A DNA stretch of 64,000 nucleotides from an uncultured Bifidobacteriaceae bacterium (GCA_964446605.1 CAYUPN010000009.1:1721-65720); one strand, 5' to 3'. Shown: positions 11,681 through 18,223, counted from the first letter of the stretch. Translations and numbers: made by a program. Notes: generated by a model not told the origin, from the sequence alone.

Positions 11681-11684
11681 ACGA

Positions 11685-11715
11685 CGGGGCCGAGTGAAGC
11701 CCCGCTCCGCTGAAC
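11685..11715. repeat. Degenerate REP-like hairpin (CGGGGC-CGAGTGAA-GCCCCG-CTCCGCTGAAC), probable terminator of the DUF1080 gene
   Basis: It sits 5 nt after the stop at 11680. The stem and tail resemble the 849 and 6574 elements. Confidence 0.5.
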
Positions 11716-11869
11716 GCTCCGGGAGCGGCGAGGCGTGCGTCTGCCGCTCCACCCACCTTTCATGGTGCGATGGGTCGAGGAGACCCTCCGTGCCAGGGTT
11801 CAGCGACAGCCGACGCCGCCGCTGCGGTCGCGCTCCCGCGAGGCATCGCCCTTGCATCGCCGCGCGGTG

Positions 11870-13027
11870 ATGCTGGACGACGATCTCGACCGACTCGCGA
11901 CGTGGGAACCGGCCGGGGCACCCGTGTTGAGCTTGTACCTCGACACCCGTCCCGACGAAACGGGCCGGCGCACGTTCGACATCTTTCTGCGCAACGAGCT
12001 GCCGAAACGGCTGGAGACCTGGCCTGCTTCGTCGCCGCAGCGCGCGAGCCTCGAGGCCGACCATGAGCGGATCGCGCGCCATCTCGAAAAAGAGCTGCAG
12101 CCATCGACGAAGGGGCTCGCCCTGTTCACCTGCAGCGCGGCGGGCCTCTTCGAGGCGCTGCCGTTCGACGTGCCGCTCGACAACCTCATCGTACTGAGCG
12201 ATCGGCCTCACCTGTATCCGCTCGCGCGCGTGCTCGACCAGTACCCGCGCTATGCCGCCGTGCTGGCCGACACCAACCATGCGCGCATCTTCGTGTTCAG
12301 CACCGGGCGCAAGGAACGCGAGCTCGAGGTGCAGGGAACCCAGACGAAGTATCCGAAGGTGGGCGGCTGGTCGCAGGCGCGCTATCAGCGGCACATCGAG
12401 CACATCCATCTGCAGCACGTGAAGGAGATCGTGGACGCGCTCGACGATCTGGTCCGGCGCGAGCAGATCGAGCATGTCGTGCTGGCTGGCGACGAGGTCG
12501 TCATCCCGATGATCCGCGAACAGCTGCCGAAGCATCTCGAGGATCGCATCCTCGACGTCGTCCGGCTGGACCAGCGAACGCCGGCGCACGAGGTGCTGGC
12601 CGCGACGCTGGACGTGCTGCGCGAGAAGGACGCGGAGTCGGACGAGGAGGTCGTCGACGCGCTGATCGGCGAGTACCGGCGCGGCGGTCTCGCGGTGGTG
12701 GGCATCGACGCCACGCTCGGGGCGCTGCGTCAGGGACAGGTCGACACGCTCGTGTTGCCGGCCTCCGCGGAGCGGATCGAGGGGGTGGCCGTGGTGCACC
12801 CGACCGGCGATGCCGTGCCGGCGCCGACCGTCGGCGCCGGGCTGTCGGCCATCGACGCGCGCGCGGCGTCATCGGGGCCAACCGCCGAGACGCGTCCGGA
12901 AGTGCAGGCGACCGGCGAACTGGTCGCGCTCGCGCGTCAGACCGCGGCGCGCCTGCGCTTCATCGAGGACGCCGACCTGCTCTCGCCGGCCGGCGGAGTC
13001 GGCGCGCTGCTGCGCTATGCGGCCTGA
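11870..13027 (+). CDS. Bacterial archaeo-eukaryotic release-factor-like protein (baeRF / Vms1-ANKZF1-like putative peptidyl-tRNA hydrolase)
   Basis: KVGGWSQARYQRH (GGWSQ at nt 12362-12376) aligns with the eRF1 GGQ loop in its GxxQ form. ...HVVLAGDEVVIP..., ...GLAVVGIDATLGALRQGQVDTLVL... matches the eRF1/Pelota domain 2-3 pattern. The start may instead be the GTG at 11867. Confidence 0.65.
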   Translation: MLDDDLDRLATWEPAGAPVLSLYLDTRPDETGRRTFDIFLRNELPKRLETWPASSPQRASLEADHERIARHLEKELQPSTKGLALFTCSAAGLFEALPFDVPLDNLIVLSDRPHLYPLARVLDQYPRYAAVLADTNHARIFVFSTGRKERELEVQGTQTKYPKVGGWSQARYQRHIEHIHLQHVKEIVDALDDLVRREQIEHVVLAGDEVVIPMIREQLPKHLEDRILDVVRLDQRTPAHEVLAATLDVLREKDAESDEEVVDALIGEYRRGGLAVVGIDATLGALRQGQVDTLVLPASAERIEGVAVVHPTGDAVPAPTVGAGLSAIDARAASSGPTAETRPEVQATGELVALARQTAARLRFIEDADLLSPAGGVGALLRYAA

Positions 13028-13044
13028 GGCCCCGGAGAGCTGTC

Positions 13045-13221
13045 ATGAGCCGGAACAGCAACGTCAATCCGGATCACTACAAGGTGCGCGGGCGCGATCG
13101 CCAGGGTGAGGACATCCGCCAGACCGCCGAGCGCCAGCGGCTCGCGAAGGCGGAGGAGCGGGCCACGCGCTCCGGAACGGCACGGCGCGGCGGCAAGACG
13201 GGCCGGAAGGCCACCCGGTAG
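13045..13221 (+). CDS. Small (58 aa) highly basic protein, not in the ORF track
   Basis: ATG 6 nt after GGAGAG. The sequence is MSRNSNVNPDHYKVRGRDRQGEDIRQTAERQRLAKAEERATRSGTARRGGKTGRKATR. Third codon positions are strongly G/C. It lies 17 nt after the baeRF stop and 8 nt before the next start. Confidence 0.55.
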   Translation: MSRNSNVNPDHYKVRGRDRQGEDIRQTAERQRLAKAEERATRSGTARRGGKTGRKATR

Positions 13222-13229
13222 GTGTCGCC

Positions 13230-13739
13230 ATGTCCGAGCCGGATGCCGGCGAGGCCCGGGAAGTCGAGCGCGGCACGGCGCCTACCGAGGCGGAGATGCG
13301 CGAGAACGTCGTGCGTCTGGTCTTCGCCGGGGATCGTCAGCAGTACGACGCATTCCTCCGGATGCTCAGCGAGGCGCTGCCGTCCGACACGGCGGTCGTC
13401 CTGCGCGGCAGCGCCGTGACGGGCTACCGGTGGTCGGACGGCGAGCCGTTCGACGCCGAGGGGCCGGGCACGAGCGACCTCGACCTGACGCTCGTCGGCG
13501 AGTCGCTGCTGGAGGAGTTCACGGCGACCGGCTTCTTCGTTCCCGGCGTGCACAGTCGGCCGCTGAGCGACGACGCTCCGGACATCGCGCCGGGGTTGTT
13601 GCCGTTGCGCGAGCGGCTGATGACGCTCGTGCATCGTCCGGTGAACATCCAGGCGACGCGTGACGCGGTCATGACCCTGCGCGGAGAGATTCTGGGCCAG
13701 CCGTACCTGGTTCTGCTCGACCGGGTGCAGGGCCCGTGA
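13230..13739 (+). CDS. Minimal Pol-beta-fold nucleotidyltransferase-like protein
   Basis: It carries LRGSAVTG ... GTSDLDLTLVG (a G-S ... D-x-D pattern). At 169 aa, its stop overlaps the EEP gene start. Confidence 0.4.
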   Translation: MSEPDAGEAREVERGTAPTEAEMRENVVRLVFAGDRQQYDAFLRMLSEALPSDTAVVLRGSAVTGYRWSDGEPFDAEGPGTSDLDLTLVGESLLEEFTATGFFVPGVHSRPLSDDAPDIAPGLLPLRERLMTLVHRPVNIQATRDAVMTLRGEILGQPYLVLLDRVQGP

Positions 13740-14479
13740 CGCTGACGATCCTCACCTACAACCTCCGGTACGGCGGACTCGGCCGGGAAGATCCGATCGC
13801 GGACGTCATTTGCGCCCAGGACCCCGATCTCGTCGTCCTCCAGGAGGCGACGCGACCGGAAGTGGTCCGCGCGCTGGCCGAGCGTCTGGACATGCCGGCC
13901 TGGGGGGCGCACCGCGGCCGGTCGCTCGGGTATCTGAGCCGCGTGCCGCTCGCCACGGCTGCCTGGCACAGACCGCGGTGGTCGCGCCATGCGTTTCTCG
14001 AGCTCGTGCCGGAGGGCGCCGGCGCCACGATTTTCGGCGTGCATCTGAGCGCCGTGCATTCGAACTGGACGGAGCGCCGCCGCGTGCTGGAAGTGCGGGC
14101 GCTGCTCGCGGCCATCCGTCCGGACAGCCGCGGACTGCACGCGGTGCTGGGGGACTTCAACACCCTCGCACCGGGCGAGCAGCTGGACCTCGCCCGCCTC
14201 CCGCCGCGGCTGCGCGCCGTCGTGTACCTCACCGGCCGGCGCATCCGGTGGCAGACGATCGAGCTGATGCTCCAGACGGACTACGTGGACGGGTACCGGG
14301 TGCATCGGCCCGATCACCCGGGCTACACGTTTCCGTCCTGGGACCCGCACGTGCGGCTCGATTACGTGTTCGTGCCGCGCGTGCACGCGGACCGCCTGAT
14401 CGCGTGCGAGGTCGCGGAGCACGATCGGGCGGCGCTCGCGTCGGATCATTTCCCGCTCCTGGCGCGGCTCGAGGTCTAG
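13736..14479 (+). CDS. Endonuclease/exonuclease/phosphatase (EEP) family protein, cytoplasmic
   Basis: ILTYNLRYGG, LVVLQEA, GDFN and SDHFPLLARL. The GTG start overlaps the upstream TGA. Confidence 0.8.
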   Translation: MTLTILTYNLRYGGLGREDPIADVICAQDPDLVVLQEATRPEVVRALAERLDMPAWGAHRGRSLGYLSRVPLATAAWHRPRWSRHAFLELVPEGAGATIFGVHLSAVHSNWTERRRVLEVRALLAAIRPDSRGLHAVLGDFNTLAPGEQLDLARLPPRLRAVVYLTGRRIRWQTIELMLQTDYVDGYRVHRPDHPGYTFPSWDPHVRLDYVFVPRVHADRLIACEVAEHDRAALASDHFPLLARLEV

Positions 14480-14547: not shown

Positions 14548-15009
14548 GTGGAGCGCACGAATCGACGCAGGTTCTTCGTGAAGACGGCACTGGCGGCGGC
14601 GGGCGCCGGCGCGGTGGCCACGGCGGCGCAGGCCCAGGAGGCCGGGCCGGTGAAGAAGGTGCACTGGCGCGGCGGCCGGCGGCCGAACAACCCGTTGTTC
14701 AGCCCGGCCGTGATCTACGGCAACCTGGTGTTCATCTCCGGCATCGGCGCGCACTTCGAGGGAGACATCACGGCGCATACCGATCACGTGCTGAAGGAGA
14801 TCGAGAAGCTGCTGGCGGAGGTCGGGTCGTCGATGGAGAAGGTGCTGAAGGTGAACGTGTACCTGAACGACCTGAAGGACTACGCCGCGATGAACGAGGT
14901 GTTCCGCGGCCGGTTCGGCCCCGAACCCGGCGTGCGCACGACGATCGCCGCGGCCGCCGGGATTCCCGGCAACTCGCTCGTCGAGATCGACTGCATCGCT
15001 CACATCTGA
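14548..15009 (+). CDS. RidA/YjgF-family protein with a Tat-type signal peptide
   Basis: AGGAGG lies 7 nt before the GTG. RRRFFVKTALAAAGAGAVATAAQA is followed by ...VFISG...KVNVYL.D......N.VF...P.RTT.....P....VEID. Confidence 0.75.
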   Translation: MERTNRRRFFVKTALAAAGAGAVATAAQAQEAGPVKKVHWRGGRRPNNPLFSPAVIYGNLVFISGIGAHFEGDITAHTDHVLKEIEKLLAEVGSSMEKVLKVNVYLNDLKDYAAMNEVFRGRFGPEPGVRTTIAAAAGIPGNSLVEIDCIAHI

Positions 15010-15010
15010 C

Positions 15011-15130
15011 GGATCGGGTGGGATCAGGTCTGATCGGGTCGGATCGGGTCGGATCAGGTCTGATCAGGTCGGATCGGGTCGGATCAGGTCTGATCAGGTC
15101 CGATCAGGTCTGATCAGGTCTGATCAGGTC
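15011..15130. repeat. 12 tandem, perfectly phased decamers KGATCRGGTC, each containing GATC
   Basis: Read directly: ggatcgggtg ggatcaggtc tgatcgggtc ggatcgggtc ggatcaggtc tgatcaggtc ggatcgggtc ggatcaggtc tgatcaggtc cgatcaggtc tgatcaggtc tgatcaggtc. Confidence 0.95.
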
Positions 15131-15155
15131 GCGCGACCGCTGATCGCGGTCGCGC
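15131..15155. terminator. Perfect 10-bp GC hairpin GCGCGACCGC-tgatc-GCGGTCGCGC between convergent genes
   Basis: Perfect inverted repeat with a 5-nt loop. The loop carries another GATC in phase with the decamer array. Confidence 0.55.
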
Positions 15156-15202
15156 AGCGTGGCTCGCCCGGTACGGCTGTCCTGACGCCTGCTCCGACCC
15201 GA

Positions 15203-18200
15203 TCAGAATCCCGTTCTGAAGCCGAAATCGAACGACCACCCGCGCGCCGGCGCGTCCATCGCGCGGACGACGGCGAATTCGAGCGGCATGCCGCCGGCGT
15301 TGATGCGGACGCCGGCGCCGATGCTGTTCACGGAGCGTCGGGTCATCGGCTCCGACCCGTTGCGCCCGCGGCTCCAGACCAGACCGCTGTCCGCGAACAC
15401 GAAGCCCTCCATCGGGATGATGCCGTAGGTCAGATCTCTCGAGAGGAGCCCCAGGAGCGGCGCCCGCACCTCGAGGTTGGCGACGAACAGGCGGCTGCCG
15501 AGCAGATCGTCGAACGACGTGCAGCGCCCGGCGGCGTCCCATTCGCACCGGAGATCGCTCCAGCTGTAGCCGCGCACGAAGTACCGCGACCCGAGAAAGG
15601 TCGGCACGAGCCGGGGATCGTGGGCATCGCGGCCGTACTGGCCCAGGTGGAGCAGGCGCGTCGCGATCGTGTAGGGCTTCGCCGGCATCATGTAGCGGCG
15701 ATAGTCGGCGAGGACGCGGGTGTGGGAGAGCCCGCCCACGCTGGGAGCCACCTCGAACCGGTACCGGCCGCCGAGAATCGGCCCGGTCGGCCCGTACACC
15801 GCGGTGTCGCCGACGAACGCCATCGCGATCTCGCCCATCGTCGCGGGCTCGCCGCCGGGTTCGGAGTAGCGCTGCTCCTGCAGCGTGCGTCCCGTCTTCA
15901 GGCTGATCGTCCGCGAGCGGACCTCGCGCGTGAAGCGCGCATGCCGCACGCCGGCAATCAACTCCACACGCTGCGATCGGTTGAGGGGGTACGCCAGCAT
16001 CGCGCCGACCCGCCCCTGGATCCGGACCAGATAGTCGCTCTGGCTGTGCAGGGCCGGCTGGTCCTCGAACTCGGTCATCGTCCGCGAGGGCAGGCGCCGG
16101 AGGCCGGGTTCGAGCTCCGCGAGCAGCCCCCAGTTGAGCCGCTGCTCCTGGTTCAGGAAGCGCAGAGCGAATGCGAAGTCACGCAGGCGGCTGCCGGCCT
16201 GGAAGGCGGTGAGCAGCTTGCGCTCGCCGAGCAGGTCGCCGAAGAGCAGGGATCCGCCGCCGCGCACGTAGGAGCCGAGCGGTCCGCCGCCGGAGCTCAG
16301 GTACGGCTGGCCGATGGCTTCGAGCGAGAGGTCCGGGCGATACGGTCTGGTCGAGATCGGAACCGCCGGCGCAGGCGCGGCGGACGTGATCGCCGACGCG
16401 ACGAGCGTGTCCTTGCGCGCGGCCGGCGGCATGCCGCCGGTCGCGAACGCGCGCGCCGGCACCGCCTCCCGCGTGTCCTCGCCGCGGTAGACGCGGACCT
16501 CGTACCGTCCCTTGCGGTAGACCGTGAGCGCGAGCGCGTCGGTGTCCAGCGCCGACGACAGCGCCGGACTCGTTTCGGCGAGCCCGCCGACCCCACCCGG
16601 CTCGTTCGACAGCTGGACCGCCCGGTTCGTGGCCAGATCGAGGCGATAGACGTGGCTGATGCCGCCGGGGTCGGCGATGAAGTACAGCGCCTCGCTTCCG
16701 GCCGACCACTGCGGGTTGACGTGCCGCGCGCCCTCGAAGACCTCGAGCGCGCGGACCTCGCCGGAGGCGACGTCGAGCAGCGCGAGACCGGGCTGGCCGA
16801 GCTCCAGCGGATCGAGCTTGCTGGTGAACCGCTCCGTGGCGAACGCAATCCGGCGGCCATCCGGCGACCAGGCGGGGTGGAGGTCGGCGAACGGGTCGTT
16901 CGTGAGCTGGCGGAGCTCGCGGGCCTCGAGGTCGTACAGATAGAGGTCCGTGATGCCGCCGCGCAGGAGCGCGAACGCGATGGCTTGTCCTTCCGGCGAC
17001 CAGGCCGGCGAGAGAATCTGCCCGTTCTTCGGCAGCCGGACCTCATGGCGCTCGCCCGGATCGGCCATGTCGAGGATCACGAGGCTCGGACGCCCGCGAT
17101 CGATGGCCGAGAAGACGAACTGCGCGCCGTCGTGGCTCCAGGCGCCGGCCGACCGGATGGCCTGCAGGCTCTCGATGCGCACGCTGTCCCTGGTCGTGGC
17201 CAGCTTGCGGAGGATGCGCCCGGTCTGCGCGTCCGCCTCGAACAGATCGATTGAGACGCGATCGCGCTCGGAGAAGAACACGACGCGGCGCCCGTCGGGG
17301 CTGATGGCGGGGCCGAGCTGCATGCGCCCGCCGCGTTCGTTCTGCACCAGGGCCGCGCCGCCCGGTGCAGGCACCGCTTCCCTCGGGTCTTTCCGGCCAT
17401 CGTCGCCGCCGGCGTCCGGTGTTCCGTAGTGCGCCCGGGCGGACGAGAGAAAGTCCTCGTACAGTCCCTGCACTCTCTCACCGGTCAGCCGTTCCAGCCG
17501 GCGCGAGATGCTGCCGCCGCGGCGGAGCTTCAGCGTGTCGGCGACGATCTTGTCGCCGAACCGGCCGGCGAGATAGGCCCAGAACGCATGTCCGAACCGG
17601 TAGGGAGAGAACCGCCGGGCCGCGGTGGACTGCGAGTCGGGCAGCAGATCGTGCAGGACGGCATCCCGCAGCCAGGCTTCCGTCTCCACGTCGGTGCTGC
17701 CGCGGGAGAGGTACTGCGCCATCCCCTCGACCGCCCAGAGCGGCCAGGTCAGCGACCCGCCGCTGTGGCGCACCATGTCGAACTGGAAGGCGTGTGCGAG
17801 CTCGTGGCCGAGGATGCGGTCGGTCTCCCCGAGCGTCGGCGCAAACGGCATCGTGATGCGGCGCCTCGCCGAGTCGGTCACGCCGCCGATGCCATCGCCC
17901 AGAATGCCTGAGACGACGTTCGTCTGCTGGAACTCGGGCTGGCTGCCGTACAGGATCAACGGCTGACGTCCGCTCAGCTTGTGGCCGAGCAGCGTCGAGA
18001 AGCGCGCGTACCACCGCTCGGCAAGCTGGGCGGCCAACCGCGCCGACTCGGCCTCGTCGGGGTAGTGGTAGACGTCGAAGTGCTCGGTCGCGAGTACCCG
18101 GAATTCGAAGTTGGAGTACTCGACCTTGTTCCGCCCGAAGTACTGCGCCGCGGCGTCTCGCGCGCCCGGGGCGGCGCACAGAAACACGAATGTCAGCACC

Positions 18201-18223
18201 GCCAGGCGTGAAACCTGCGCCAT
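15203..18223 (-). CDS. Zincin (HExxH) peptidase domain fused to a TolB-like PD40 beta-propeller and a C-terminal Omp85 (bacterial surface antigen) beta-barrel
   Basis: Signal peptide, then HELAH at nt 17792-17806. Repeated ..SPDG..(I/V)(A/V)F.. PD40 blades follow. The C-terminus reads ..VRGYS...ANLEVR.PL....FADSG.VW....GAGVR....FGFRTGF and ends in F. Confidence 0.7.
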   Translation of the reverse strand: MAQVSRLAVLTFVFLCAAPGARDAAAQYFGRNKVEYSNFEFRVLATEHFDVYHYPDEAESARLAAQLAERWYARFSTLLGHKLSGRQPLILYGSQPEFQQTNVVSGILGDGIGGVTDSARRRITMPFAPTLGETDRILGHELAHAFQFDMVRHSGGSLTWPLWAVEGMAQYLSRGSTDVETEAWLRDAVLHDLLPDSQSTAARRFSPYRFGHAFWAYLAGRFGDKIVADTLKLRRGGSISRRLERLTGERVQGLYEDFLSSARAHYGTPDAGGDDGRKDPREAVPAPGGAALVQNERGGRMQLGPAISPDGRRVVFFSERDRVSIDLFEADAQTGRILRKLATTRDSVRIESLQAIRSAGAWSHDGAQFVFSAIDRGRPSLVILDMADPGERHEVRLPKNGQILSPAWSPEGQAIAFALLRGGITDLYLYDLEARELRQLTNDPFADLHPAWSPDGRRIAFATERFTSKLDPLELGQPGLALLDVASGEVRALEVFEGARHVNPQWSAGSEALYFIADPGGISHVYRLDLATNRAVQLSNEPGGVGGLAETSPALSSALDTDALALTVYRKGRYEVRVYRGEDTREAVPARAFATGGMPPAARKDTLVASAITSAAPAPAVPISTRPYRPDLSLEAIGQPYLSSGGGPLGSYVRGGGSLLFGDLLGERKLLTAFQAGSRLRDFAFALRFLNQEQRLNWGLLAELEPGLRRLPSRTMTEFEDQPALHSQSDYLVRIQGRVGAMLAYPLNRSQRVELIAGVRHARFTREVRSRTISLKTGRTLQEQRYSEPGGEPATMGEIAMAFVGDTAVYGPTGPILGGRYRFEVAPSVGGLSHTRVLADYRRYMMPAKPYTIATRLLHLGQYGRDAHDPRLVPTFLGSRYFVRGYSWSDLRCEWDAAGRCTSFDDLLGSRLFVANLEVRAPLLGLLSRDLTYGIIPMEGFVFADSGLVWSRGRNGSEPMTRRSVNSIGAGVRINAGGMPLEFAVVRAMDAPARGWSFDFGFRTGF

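What the first reader, a model, noticed from the sequence alone, without database searches (positions are those of the whole stretch)
11870..14479. eRF1/Vms1-like release-factor homolog in one operon with a minimal nucleotidyltransferase and an EEP phosphoesterase: candidate bacterial stalled-ribosome / tRNA 3'-end repair cassette
Four co-directional ORFs are joined by 17-nt, 8-nt and -4-nt (GTGA) junctions. (i) 11870..13027 has the core KVGGWSQARYQRH (GGWSQ at nt 12362-12376), which is the GGQ loop of eRF1/Pelota-fold proteins in the G-x-x-Q form used by Vms1/ANKZF1. (ii) A 58-aa Lys/Arg-rich ORF is absent from the ORF track. (iii) A 169-aa protein carries the G-S...D-x-D signature of Pol-beta-fold nucleotidyltransferases. 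(iv) The last gene is an EEP-fold phosphoesterase. In eukaryotes Vms1/ANKZF1 releases nascent chains from stalled large subunits by cutting off the tRNA CCA end. A phosphoesterase (ELAC1) then removes the 2',3'-cyclic phosphate, and the CCA-adding nucleotidyltransferase rebuilds the end. The same three activities appear here as a single translationally coupled operon. Bacterial aeRF1 homologs (baeRF families) are known to me only from comparative genomics, and I am not aware of this four-gene arrangement being described or tested.
Basis: partly seen in the sequence, partly recalled or inferred. Interest (0 to 1): 0.85.

Follow-up and report, generated by a model that had tools for sequence, protein, structure and literature searches.

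The report
Two unrelated gene pairs, not one cassette
The four genes are real, but they are two separate conserved gene pairs that sit side by side in only one small group of soil Acidobacteria: a release-factor-like ribosome protein with a tiny basic partner, and a nucleotidyltransferase-like protein with a phosphoesterase, so a dedicated "stalled-ribosome plus tRNA-end repair" operon is not supported.

Summary
In detail: four co-directional ORFs with 17, 8 and -4 nt junctions, and GGWSQ at 12362-12376.

**ORF1** is a three-domain aeRF1-superfamily protein of Pfam baeRF_family10. Its model fits ribosome-bound Balon best (TM 0.75-0.80). Unlike Balon, it keeps an invariant GGxSQ loop, which Burroughs & Aravind noted for family 10 in 2019.

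- ORF3/ORF4 lie next to an ORF1 homologue in 1 of 80 genome loci and 0 of 80 metagenome loci.
- A syntenic relative (ORF1 83% identical) has ORF1-ORF2 and then the RidA-family (Ribonuc_L-PSP) gene, with no trace of ORF3/ORF4.
- ORF3-ORF4 is an overlap-coupled pair conserved in 7 of 7 unrelated contexts without any baeRF gene.

**The recurrent partner of ORF1 is ORF2.** It is a 58-aa protein with pI 11.7, under purifying selection, from an unnamed family of at least 1,486 proteins. It lies directly downstream in 29 of 76 loci, or 36 of 76 if a second small charged type is counted.

**ORF3** has the GS...DxD motif and weak Pol-beta-fold matches only. **ORF4** is an EEP enzyme with all catalytic residues invariant.

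Most likely ORF1 (with ORF2) is an A-site ribosome factor that may release peptides. The function of ORF3-ORF4 is unknown. Interest is moderate.

The parts
11870..13027 (+). ORF1: three-domain aeRF1-superfamily A-site factor, Pfam baeRF_family10 (385 aa)
   Evidence: Pfam PF18854 scores 97.3 bits against a cut-off of 27.1. The AF2 model has pLDDT 87.4 and pTM 0.78. The best Foldseek match is Balon Msmeg1130 8v9j_z, E 1.8e-20, TM 0.75/0.80. The family profile matches eRF1/aRF1 at about 4e-13 and Balon at 1.4e-11.
12362..12376 (+). GGWSQ catalytic-type loop (G165-Q169), followed by ARYQRH
   Evidence: G165, G166, Q169, R171, Q173 and R174 are invariant, and W167 and S168 are at least 90% conserved, in 31 sequences of 48-93% identity. 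The loop fits the GxuQ and GGxSQ motifs of the VLRF-1 families, and family 10 is noted to keep the Gln. It aligns with GGQSAQRFAR of aRF1 4af1.
13045..13221 (+). ORF2: 58-aa, very basic, probably disordered protein; the recurrent downstream partner of family-10 genes
   Evidence: pI 11.66, net charge +10. The HMM hits 29 of 76 ORF1-seeded loci, always directly downstream on the same strand. 35 of 80 ORF2-seeded loci have ORF1 upstream. The family has at least 1,486 proteins, with no Pfam domain and no name. dN/dS is 0.21-0.64.
13045..13119 (+). Conserved N-terminal motif of ORF2 (MSRNSNVNPDHYKVRGRDRQGEDIR), ahead of a variable basic tail
   Evidence: Alignments give the consensus MSK..NVNPDHYKVAGRERPG. 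The same motif heads longer proteins with Lys/Ala/Pro-rich tails.
13230..13739 (+). ORF3: 169-aa protein of an unnamed family with a divergent minimal Pol-beta-NTase-like core
   Evidence: No Pfam, NCBIfam or PADLOC hit. The AF2 model has pLDDT 85.7 and pTM 0.80. Nearly all of the top 40 Foldseek matches are Pol-beta-fold NTases, but the best E is only 4.5e-3. Mean column identity across the alignment is 55%, and members are 61-91% identical to ORF3.
13407..13484 (+). G60-S61 ... D83-L84-D85 motif region of ORF3, with a 21-residue spacer
   Evidence: These residues are invariant in 30 sequences. GS follows strand 55-59 and DLD opens strand 84-89 in the model, which is the canonical placement. 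The spacer is longer than the 9-13 residues usual for this superfamily (my knowledge).
13736..14479 (+). ORF4: EEP-fold phosphoesterase/nuclease (247 aa), overlap-coupled to ORF3
   Evidence: Pfam PF03372 scores 37.3 bits against a cut-off of 24.5. N9, E37, D140, N142, D209, D237 and H238 are invariant in 10 independent modules. The 4-nt overlap with the ORF3 homologue is seen in all contexts.
11681..11869 (+). 189-nt region upstream of ORF1, the presumed promoter/leader; no element identified
   Evidence: No sigma-70-like site and no Rfam match.

Best explanation
The 2.6-kb stretch joins two independent, separately conserved two-gene modules. They became adjacent, and probably co-transcribed, in one Vicinamibacterales sub-lineage.

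**Module A (ORF1 + ORF2)**
- By homology and fold it should occupy the ribosomal A site. This is inferred.
- Unlike Balon, it keeps an invariant GGxSQ loop and the downstream Arg-rich helix. It therefore most likely places a Gln in the peptidyl-transferase centre and releases the nascent chain from stalled or idle ribosomes without reading a stop codon. This is inferred and untested.
- ORF2 is a 6.6-kDa, pI 11.7, largely disordered protein. It is the only recurrent neighbour of ORF1 and probably binds rRNA as an accessory factor, in the mRNA channel or the exit tunnel. This is speculative.

**Module B (ORF3 + ORF4)**
- A divergent minimal nucleotidyltransferase-like protein is translationally coupled to a catalytically intact EEP phosphoesterase.
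- The pair is conserved widely in Acidobacteriota in unrelated contexts, often beside an aldehyde dehydrogenase gene.
- The two proteins probably act as a complex on an unknown substrate. Nothing ties them to translation.
For: **Shown for ORF1**
- Family and fold.
- The Gln loop is invariant, and the literature notes this for family 10.

**Shown for separability of the two modules**
- ORF3/ORF4 are absent next to ORF1 in 79 of 80 genome loci and in 80 of 80 ORF2-seeded metagenome loci.
- The syntenic L083/L084 loci, where ORF1 is 83% identical, have ORF1-ORF2 followed by about 305 nt and then the RidA-family (Ribonuc_L-PSP) gene.
- That difference is a clean indel with no remnants of ORF3 or ORF4.

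**Shown for the autonomy of ORF3-ORF4**
- The pair occurs in 7 of 7 contexts with the same 4-nt overlap and no baeRF gene.
- An Aldedh gene is adjacent in 4 of those 7.

**Shown for the ORF1-ORF2 link**
- 29 of 76 ORF1-seeded loci have ORF2, and all 29 hits are directly downstream, with none elsewhere in the roughly 0.8 Mb searched.
- 35 of 80 reciprocal loci have ORF1 upstream.
- 7 further loci carry a second type of small charged ORF in the same position.
- No other neighbour family exceeds 11 of 80 loci.

**Other**
- ORF2 is under purifying selection.
- ORF4's catalytic residues are invariant.
Against: - The four-gene order, with tight ORF2-ORF3 junctions of 8-18 nt, persists in relatives whose ORF1 is 92%, 78% and 69% identical, even though synonymous sites are near saturation. 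The juxtaposition is therefore old and could be selected in this lineage.
- No internal promoter or terminator was detected, so the four genes are probably one transcript.
- ORF2 is neither always present with ORF1 (29-36 of 76 loci) nor exclusive to it. 45 of 80 ORF2-type genes show no ORF1 by tblastn. Only about 15 of those have enough upstream sequence to rule it out, and some of these are longer proteins with histone-H1-like tails in other contexts.
- Whether ORF1 is catalytic is unknown. Its whole-protein fold is closest to the non-catalytic Balon.
- Genome-wide co-occurrence of modules A and B when they are unlinked was not tested.
Confidence: 0.72

Rival explanations
1. The four genes form one functional cassette. 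ORF1 cuts the tRNA CCA end on stalled ribosomes, as Vms1/ANKZF1 does. ORF4 then removes the 2',3'-cyclic phosphate, and ORF3 rebuilds the 3' end.
For: - The genes are tightly packed, and the arrangement is kept in four relatives whose ORF1 is 69-92% identical.
- ORF1's loop has the GxuQ/GGxSQ form found in the VLRF-1 families.
- ORF3's weak fold matches include CCA- and A-adding enzymes.
- ORF4 is an intact EEP enzyme, and EEP enzymes such as ExoIII/APE1 have 3'-phosphatase and 3'-phosphodiesterase activity on DNA (my knowledge).
Against: - There is no co-conservation outside one sub-lineage.
- ORF3-ORF4 are absent from a nested syntenic relative that keeps ORF1-ORF2.
- ORF3-ORF4 are conserved on their own in 7 of 7 other contexts, often beside an aldehyde dehydrogenase gene.
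- ORF1 is not in the VLRF-1 clade. acVLRF1 models score below cut-off or lower than baeRF_family10, and no Vms1 chain is matched.
- ORF3 is 169 aa and has no tRNA-binding body or tail domain. The third carboxylate is not evident.
- No NTase family is matched by sequence.
Confidence: 0.07
2. ORF1 is a non-catalytic, Balon-type ribosome hibernation factor, and ORF2 is a second small hibernation factor. ORF2 would be functionally analogous to RMF, RaiA or the 62-aa tunnel plug RTOF. Together they would silence and protect ribosomes during starvation.
For: - The best whole-protein structural match is ribosome-bound Balon (TM 0.75-0.80).
- The best PDB sequence hit for the single protein is Balon Rv2629, and the N-domain aligns only with Balon's.
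- NCBIfam hibernation-factor models give E values of 6e-23 and 1e-19.
- There is no NIKS motif (sequence).
- Small charged ribosome-plugging factors of about 60 aa are known.
- The organism is a slow-growing soil Acidobacterium.
Against: - Balon and its verified mycobacterial homologues are defined in part by lacking the GGQ-type Gln. ORF1's GGxSQ loop is invariant across 48-93% identity, which is hard to explain without a function for the Gln.
- NCBIfam scores are far below the equivalog cut-offs (81.6 against 320, and 70.4 against 480).
- The typical Balon neighbours (RaiA/HPF, Hsp20, RtcB) were not seen in 80 loci.
- The M and C domains score at least as well against active eRF1/aRF1.
Confidence: 0.3
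3. ORF3-ORF4 is a toxin-antitoxin or defence-type pair. A minimal NTase (MNT-like) would modify or neutralise an EEP nuclease toxin, and the pair would have inserted as a mobile module next to ORF1-ORF2.
For: - The top fold matches of ORF3 include the MNT antitoxin and HI0073 of two-protein NTase systems.
- The genes form an overlapping two-gene unit.
- The pair is present or absent as a unit between close relatives.
Against: - There are no PADLOC hits.
- Members are unusually well conserved, 61-91% identical to ORF3 across the sampled metagenomes, and the family collapses to only 416 clusters at 50% identity. That looks like housekeeping or vertical inheritance rather than fast-evolving conflict genes.
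- Neighbours are metabolic genes (Aldedh, homoserine dehydrogenase, LysE), and no integrases or other mobile-element genes were seen.
Confidence: 0.1

Closest known systems
baeRF-1 family 10 (Pfam PF18854; Burroughs & Aravind 2019, PMC6514570)
   Same: ORF1 is a member. It scores above the Pfam cut-off, has the three-domain aeRF1 architecture, and keeps the conserved catalytic-loop Gln that the authors singled out as a sign of possible peptidyl-hydrolase activity.
   Different: The main text of that paper describes only an association of baeRF-1 families with HPF. It reports no small basic partner for family 10, and it describes no NTase or EEP neighbour for any baeRF-1 family. Their supplementary data were not examined here.
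Balon ribosome hibernation factor (P. urativorans Balon, Msmeg1130, Rv2629; PDB 8rd8, 8v9j, 8v9k; PMC10901736)
   Same: Balon is the closest solved structures over all three domains (TM 0.75-0.80). The N-domain is alignable only to Balon's. ORF1 has no NIKS motif and belongs to the same bacterial aeRF1-derived clade.
   Different: Balon lacks the GGQ-type Gln, whereas ORF1 keeps an invariant GGWSQ. ORF1 scores far below the NCBIfam equivalog cut-offs. No RaiA or stress-gene neighbourhood was found. The C-domain insert (about residues 300-345) is variable in the family and low in model confidence.
Classical aRF1/eRF1 release factors (e.g. PDB 4af1, 3e20)
   Same: The M and C domains give the best profile-sequence matches (about 4e-13). 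The loop GGWSQARYQR aligns with GGQSAQRFAR, and the Arg-rich helix is retained.
   Different: The Gln is displaced by two positions, with Trp at the canonical Gln position. The N-domain is not alignable, and no NIKS or YxCxxxF stop-codon motifs are seen. The bacterial host keeps its own RF1 and RF2 (general knowledge).
Vms1/ANKZF1 (VLRF-1 clade) with ELAC1 and TRNT1 tRNA recycling in eukaryotic RQC
   Same: Loop motif of the GxuQ/GGxSQ type.
   Different: ORF1 belongs to a different clade and has a different architecture, and no Vms1 chain was matched by sequence or fold. ELAC1 is MBL-fold rather than EEP, and TRNT1 is a large class-II CCA enzyme (my knowledge). The three genes are not co-conserved here.
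ArfA/BrfA/ArfT small adaptor proteins, and RMF/RTOF small hibernation factors
   Same: ORF2 is likewise about 60 aa, highly basic and probably disordered, and it is encoded beside a release-factor-like protein. The resemblance is functional only.
   Different: There is no sequence similarity and no experimental data. ArfA-type adaptors recruit bacterial RF2, not an aeRF1-type protein. The ORF2-type motif also occurs in other genomic contexts.
Minimal nucleotidyltransferases (MNT/HI0073-type, Pol-beta superfamily)
   Same: ORF3 has the GS and DxD motifs on the expected structural elements, and its fold matches are almost exclusively Pol-beta NTases.
   Different: No sequence-family match was found. 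The spacer is 21 residues. The third carboxylate is not evident (invariant N139-I-Q141 on the candidate strand). The partner is an EEP enzyme rather than a HEPN protein.

Membership tests
baeRF-1 family 10 (PF18854) | Pfam HMM score above the gathering threshold | tested here: met
   97.3 bits against 27.1, E 1.3e-27.
baeRF-1 family 10 (PF18854) | Three-domain aeRF1 architecture (N, RNase-H-like M, Pelota-like C) | tested here: met
   The model has pLDDT 87.4. Full-length matches to Balon and aRF1/eRF1.
baeRF-1 family 10 (PF18854) | Well-conserved Gln in the catalytic loop | tested here: met
   Q169 is invariant within GGWSQ in 31 sequences. The feature is described.
Balon / ribosome hibernation factor (NF052289, NF052288) | NCBIfam equivalog cut-off reached | tested here: not met
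   81.6 bits against 320, and 70.4 against 480.
Balon / ribosome hibernation factor | Fold like ribosome-bound Balon | tested here: met
   8v9j_z at E 1.8e-20, TM 0.75/0.80; 8rd8_B at TM 0.68/0.72.
Balon / ribosome hibernation factor | Absence of the GGQ-type catalytic Gln | tested here: not met
   The GGWSQ loop is invariant. Balon is described as lacking GGQ.
Balon / ribosome hibernation factor | Absence of the NIKS motif | tested here: met
   There is no NIKS string in ORF1. The N-domain aligns with Msmeg1130 but not with aRF1.
Balon / ribosome hibernation factor | HP motif contacting the decoding centre; bL27 trap; EF-Tu-binding hairpin | tested here: inconclusive
   The paper gives no residue numbers. 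ORF1's Y116-P117 aligns with an H-P pair in Msmeg1130 and a V-P pair in Rv2629, but whether that pair is the HP motif is not established. The C-domain insert is variable and low in model confidence.
Balon / ribosome hibernation factor | Location in stress or hibernation operons (RaiA/HPF, Hsp20, RtcB and others) | tested here: not met
   No such family occurs in 5 or more of 80 loci.
Balon / ribosome hibernation factor | Binds the A site of 70S ribosomes with EF-Tu and inhibits translation | not testable with these tools
   Requires biochemistry or cryo-EM.
Vms1/ANKZF1 (VLRF-1 clade) | GxuQ or GGxSQ catalytic loop | tested here: met
   G166-W-S-Q169.
Vms1/ANKZF1 (VLRF-1 clade) | Closest by sequence or structure to VLRF-1 members | tested here: not met
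   Pfam acVLRF1 scores 44 bits against 97 for family 10. NCBIfam acVLRF1 scores 22.9 against a cut-off of 125. No Vms1 chain appears.
Vms1/ANKZF1 (VLRF-1 clade) | Cleaves the tRNA 3'-CCA on 60S/50S-bound peptidyl-tRNA | not testable with these tools
   Requires an in vitro assay.
Pol-beta-fold nucleotidyltransferase (minimal NTase) | hG[GS] ... [DE]h[DE]h motif on strand 1/helix and strand 2 | tested here: met
   G60, S61, D83 and D85 are invariant and sit on the expected elements. The spacer is 21 residues, longer than usual.
Pol-beta-fold nucleotidyltransferase (minimal NTase) | Match to a curated NTase sequence family | tested here: not met
   No Pfam or NCBIfam hit for ORF3 or for 29 homologues. 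The family profile finds nothing in PDB sequences.
Pol-beta-fold nucleotidyltransferase (minimal NTase) | Pol-beta alpha/beta core fold | tested here: inconclusive
   Nearly all of the top 40 Foldseek matches are NTases, but the best is E 4.5e-3, probability 0.95, TM 0.31-0.51.
Pol-beta-fold nucleotidyltransferase (minimal NTase) | Third catalytic carboxylate | tested here: inconclusive
   The candidate strand 138-143 carries invariant N139 and Q141 rather than an acid. D116 and D145 are nearly invariant.
EEP superfamily (PF03372) | Pfam score above the cut-off, and the catalytic Asn, Glu, Asp/Asn, Asp and Asp-His residues | tested here: met
   37.3 bits against 24.5. N9, E37, D140, N142, D209, D237 and H238 are invariant in 10 modules.
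   1 of 80 genome loci and 0 of 80 metagenome loci. Absent in syntenic L083/L084. ORF3-ORF4 are autonomous in 7 of 7 contexts.

The most novel reading that the evidence does not exclude
ORF1 and ORF2 together form an undescribed two-component ribosome rescue or termination system in Acidobacteriota. An archaeo-eukaryotic-type release factor from the Balon clade would have kept a working Gln loop and would hydrolyse peptidyl-tRNA on bacterial ribosomes. A roughly 60-aa basic partner would sense or plug an empty mRNA channel or the exit tunnel, much as ArfA, BrfA and ArfT do for RF2. This would be the first catalytically active aeRF1-type release factor in Bacteria, and it would mark an intermediate between release factors and the hibernation factor Balon.
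Probability: 0.2. Interest if true: 0.75.

Novelty: new variant of a known kind. Interest (0 to 1): 0.42.

Why it matters
Balon showed that bacteria turned an archaeal-type release factor into a hibernation factor by losing its catalytic motifs. Family 10 belongs to the same clade but keeps the Gln loop under strict conservation. It is therefore the natural test case for whether bacteria also use an aeRF1-type protein as an active peptide-release or rescue factor. Finding that its only recurrent neighbour is an unnamed, very basic protein of about 58 aa gives experimenters a defined two-protein system to reconstitute. The negative result also matters: the appealing parallel with eukaryotic Vms1-ELAC1-TRNT1 comes from two unrelated modules sitting side by side, and it should not enter annotation. 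Separately, the ORF3-EEP pair is a compact, highly conserved Acidobacterial module with no assigned function.

Tried and rejected
- PADLOC scan of all four proteins: no hits.
- Single-sequence and profile searches of ORF3 against PDB sequences: only chance matches to antibodies and FKBP.
- Pfam on 30 ORF3 homologues: nothing.
- Pfam on longer ORF3-domain proteins: only a weak CbiX-like N-domain and one apparent ORF3-EEP read-through, with no link to tRNA.
- Search for other conserved neighbours of family-10 genes (HPF/RaiA, RtcB, Hsp20): none in 5 or more of 80 loci.
- Promoter and terminator consensus scan: no promoter-like site; the single terminator-like site lies inside ORF1 and is no more than the shuffles give. 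These scans have low power in a high-GC Acidobacterium.
- Rfam scans of the region and of the whole window, and a tRNA scan: nothing above threshold. Only sub-threshold hairpin-like hits at 15021-15157.
- Search for remnants of ORF3/ORF4 in the relative that lacks them: none.
- My first heuristic for small ORFs sometimes picked the wrong reading frame. It was replaced by HMM searches.
- Locating Balon's HP motif from the paper text failed, because no residue numbers are given.
- Literature searches found no experimental work on family 10 or on the ORF2 family.

Full report
**1. Observation**

The four ORFs exist as described, all on the + strand:
- ORF1: 11870-13027, 385 aa.
- ORF2: 13045-13221, 58 aa.
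- ORF3: 13230-13739, 169 aa.
- ORF4: 13736-14479, 247 aa.

The junctions are 17 nt, 8 nt and a 4-nt GTGA overlap. GGWSQ is encoded at 12362-12376. GGAG lies 7 nt before the ORF2 start, and AGGTG lies 5 nt before the ORF3 start. A consensus scan finds no promoter-like site, and its one terminator-like site lies inside ORF1 and is no more than shuffled sequence gives. That fits a single transcript, but the evidence is weak in a high-GC genome.

**2. ORF1**

Family assignment:
- Pfam places ORF1 in baeRF_family10 (97.3 bits against a cut-off of 27.1). There are lower hits to baeRF_family2, acVLRF1, eRF1_2 and eRF1_3.
- NCBIfam gives significant but far sub-threshold matches to two "ribosome hibernation factor" equivalogs, the Balon families Rv2629 and MSMEG_1130. 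It also matches aRF1.
- NCBI names a 92%-identical protein from a Vicinamibacterales MAG "Vms1/Ankzf1 family peptidyl-tRNA hydrolase".

Structure and profile comparisons:
- A confident AF2 model (pLDDT 87.4, pTM 0.78) superposes best on ribosome-bound Balon Msmeg1130 (E 1.8e-20, TM 0.75/0.80). Next come aRF1, P. urativorans Balon, Rv2629 and eRF1/Pelota. No Vms1 structure is in the top 50.
- A family profile matches the M and C domains of active eRF1/aRF1 best (3-5e-13). It matches Balon over the whole length, including the N-domain (1.4e-11). No Vms1 chain is matched.

The catalytic-type loop:
- In an alignment of 31 family members at 48-93% identity, G165, G166, Q169, R171, Q173 and R174 are invariant. 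W167 and S168 are at least 90% conserved.
- GGWSQARYQR aligns with GGQSAQRFAR of aRF1, so the Gln is shifted by two positions.
- This is the GxuQ/GGxSQ pattern that Burroughs & Aravind describe for the VLRF-1 families. They explicitly single out baeRF-1 family 10 as keeping a well-conserved Gln and as a possible peptidyl hydrolase.
- Balon and its two structurally verified mycobacterial homologues are characterised by lacking GGQ and NIKS.

ORF1 is therefore a member of a known, computationally described family. It belongs to the Balon clade by fold, but it has a release-factor-like loop. No experimental study of family 10 was found.

**3. Neighbourhood test**

Using the ORF1 alignment I fetched 80 loci from reference genomes, with 6 kb of flank on each side. 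They are mostly Vicinamibacterales, Pyrinomonadaceae, Bryobacteraceae and other Acidobacteriota.

ORF3 and ORF4 rarely accompany ORF1:
- tblastn finds ORF3 and ORF4 homologues next to ORF1 only in L001, the 92%-identical relative. They are absent in the other 79 loci.
- Look-ups of closer relatives show the four-gene order in relatives whose ORF1 is 78% identical (L085) and 69% identical (L081/L082).
- The 83% relative (L083/L084) has the same flanking genes: 3keto-disac_hyd upstream, and Ribonuc_L-PSP/RidA and a Tricorn-like gene downstream. It has ORF1-ORF2 followed by about 305 nt and then the RidA-family gene.
- DNA comparison shows a clean indel. Homology stops just after ORF2 and resumes about 30 nt after the ORF4 stop. 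No ORF3 or ORF4 remnants lie in between.

ORF3-ORF4 is a pair in its own right:
- ORF3 homologues elsewhere are always followed by a 244-259-aa EEP gene with the same 4-nt overlap. This holds in 7 of 7 different contexts, and a baeRF gene is never nearby.
- An aldehyde dehydrogenase gene of about 569 aa is adjacent in 4 of the 7. In L172 it is itself overlap-coupled to ORF3.

So ORF3-ORF4 is an autonomous module. Its adjacency to ORF1-ORF2 is lineage-specific and dispensable.

**4. ORF2**

Link to ORF1:
- An HMM built from downstream small ORFs hits 29 of the 76 ORF1-seeded loci that have at least 300 nt of downstream sequence. Every hit lies directly after ORF1 on the same strand, and there are no hits elsewhere.
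- A second, apparently unrelated, small charged ORF (MSDKDRAKKDHERTDKK...) occupies the same position in 7 further loci. In total, 36 of 76 loci have a small charged ORF there.
- No other gene family recurs in more than 11 of 80 loci. HPF/RaiA, RtcB and Hsp20 were not seen.

Properties of the family:
- It has at least 1,486 members, all labelled "hypothetical", with no Pfam domain.
- The window protein is 6.6 kDa with pI 11.66, net charge +10 and 10% hydrophobic residues.
- dN/dS among close relatives is 0.21-0.64, with dS up to 1.0. It is therefore a protein-coding gene with a conserved N-terminal motif (MSK..NVNPDHYKVAGRERQGE) and a variable basic tail.

The link is not obligate:
- In the reciprocal test, 35 of 80 ORF2-seeded metagenome loci have a family-10 gene 13-84 nt upstream in most cases.
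- The other 45 show no ORF1 by tblastn. Only about 15 of these have enough upstream sequence to rule it out.
- There the motif also heads longer proteins of 89-173 aa, several with Lys/Ala/Pro-rich, histone-H1-like tails. These lie next to genes such as a UvrD/PcrA-like helicase, leuC or dinB.

The association is frequent and positionally strict, but it is not obligate.

**5. ORF3 and ORF4**

ORF3:
- It has no hit in Pfam, NCBIfam or PADLOC.
- Its profile finds only 416 clusters at 50% identity among 1.84 billion representatives. This is a compact family whose sampled members are 61-91% identical to ORF3.
- The AF2 model is confident (pLDDT 85.7, pTM 0.80).
- Nearly all of the top 40 Foldseek matches are Pol-beta-fold nucleotidyltransferases: HI0073, the MNT antitoxin, CCA/A-adding enzymes, TUT4, ANT(4') and AadA. 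None reaches E 1e-3. The best is 4.5e-3, with probability 0.95 and TM 0.31-0.51.
- Invariant G60-S61 follows the first strand, and invariant D83-x-D85 opens the second strand, as in the superfamily. However, the spacer is 21 residues long, and the strand expected to carry the third carboxylate has invariant N139/Q141.
- I rate "Pol-beta-like fold" as probable and "active nucleotidyltransferase" as open. Nothing indicates tRNA specificity.

ORF4:
- It is an EEP enzyme with every catalytic residue invariant in ten independent modules.
- Its subfamily could not be assigned. There are only weak ExoIII-like matches.

**6. Mechanism**

Shown:
- ORF1 has a three-domain aeRF1/Balon fold.
- The Gln loop is under strict conservation.
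- ORF1 and ORF2 are linked in many genomes.
- ORF3-ORF4 is an autonomous pair.

Inferred:
- ORF1 binds the ribosomal A site as its solved relatives do.
- The retained GGxSQ loop and Arg-rich helix point to a catalytic act at the peptidyl-transferase centre. Peptidyl-tRNA hydrolysis is more likely than tRNA cleavage.
- ORF1 lacks a stop-codon motif and has a Balon-type N-domain. It would therefore act on stalled or idle ribosomes rather than at normal termination.

Speculative:
- ORF2 binds rRNA as an accessory factor.

The main rival for module A is a non-catalytic, Balon-like hibernation role with ORF2 as a second hibernation factor. I give that about 0.3.

**7. Novelty and score**

- ORF1's family and its conserved Gln were described in 2019, and ORF4 is an ordinary EEP enzyme.
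- The four-gene "cassette" is a juxtaposition, not a system.
- Two things appear new relative to the literature I could search. One is the recurrent small basic partner of family-10 genes. The other is the compact ORF3-EEP module.
- I file the finding as a new variant of a known kind, with interest 0.42.
- The most novel reading still open is an active aeRF1-type release or rescue factor with a small adaptor in Bacteria. I give it probability about 0.2, with interest about 0.75 if true.

Noticed in passing
L087, L091, L172, L173 (next to the ORF3-ORF4 homologues): An aldehyde dehydrogenase gene of about 567-570 aa (PF00171) lies beside the ORF3-EEP pair in 4 of 7 independent contexts. In L172 it overlaps the ORF3 start by 4 nt. 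This hints at a three-gene metabolic unit rather than an RNA-repair role.
   Followed up: partly
L105:3146-3661, L138:2514-2984, L143:2297-2704, L150:4001-4522, L121:3232-3501: The ORF2 N-terminal motif (MSK..NVNP.HYKVAGRERQGE) also heads longer proteins of 89-173 aa. Several have Lys/Ala/Pro-rich, histone-H1-like tails. They lie in contexts without a family-10 gene, near a UvrD/PcrA-like helicase, leuC or dinB.
   Followed up: partly
L036:2546-2731, L051, L054, L058, L060, L072, L080 (directly after the ORF1 homologue): A second small charged ORF type of 56-60 aa (MSDKDRAKKDHERTDKKNK...ESNLTD) replaces ORF2 directly downstream of family-10 genes in Pyrinomonadaceae-like loci. Whether it is a divergent ORF2 homologue or an analogue is unresolved.
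   Followed up: partly
P0403, P0407, P0415-P0420, P0426 and others: A subset of ORF3-family proteins is about 300 aa long, with the ORF3 domain in the C-terminal half. The N-terminal half is weakly CbiX-like; P0426 scores 26.3 bits against a cut-off of 22.
   Followed up: partly
window 15021-15157: The region between the convergent RidA-like gene (ending at 15009) and the Tricorn-like gene (15203-18223, minus strand) gives several sub-threshold hairpin-type Rfam hits (miRNA-precursor models, nhaA-II). It is probably a bidirectional terminator hairpin.
   Followed up: no
window 11735-11869: The ORF1 reading frame is open upstream to GTG 11735 (430 aa), and TTG 11855 matches the MHRRAVM... start annotated in close relatives. 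Family conservation begins at the 11870 Met, so the true start is uncertain by 5-45 codons.
   Followed up: partly
window 12767-12904 (ORF1 residues about 300-345): The insert in the C-terminal Pelota-like domain varies in length, is absent in some family members (for example P0039, P0072, P0104, P0108), and has low model confidence (pLDDT 57-71). It lies where Burroughs & Aravind place a two-strand insert and where Balon has its EF-Tu-contacting hairpin.
   Followed up: no
L017:4482-5708 and 10 other ORF1-seeded loci; L081:2994-4859: A divergently transcribed FAD/DAO-type oxidoreductase gene lies immediately upstream of the family-10 gene in 11 of 80 loci. It is the most frequent neighbour other than ORF2. 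It is absent from the window itself.
   Followed up: no
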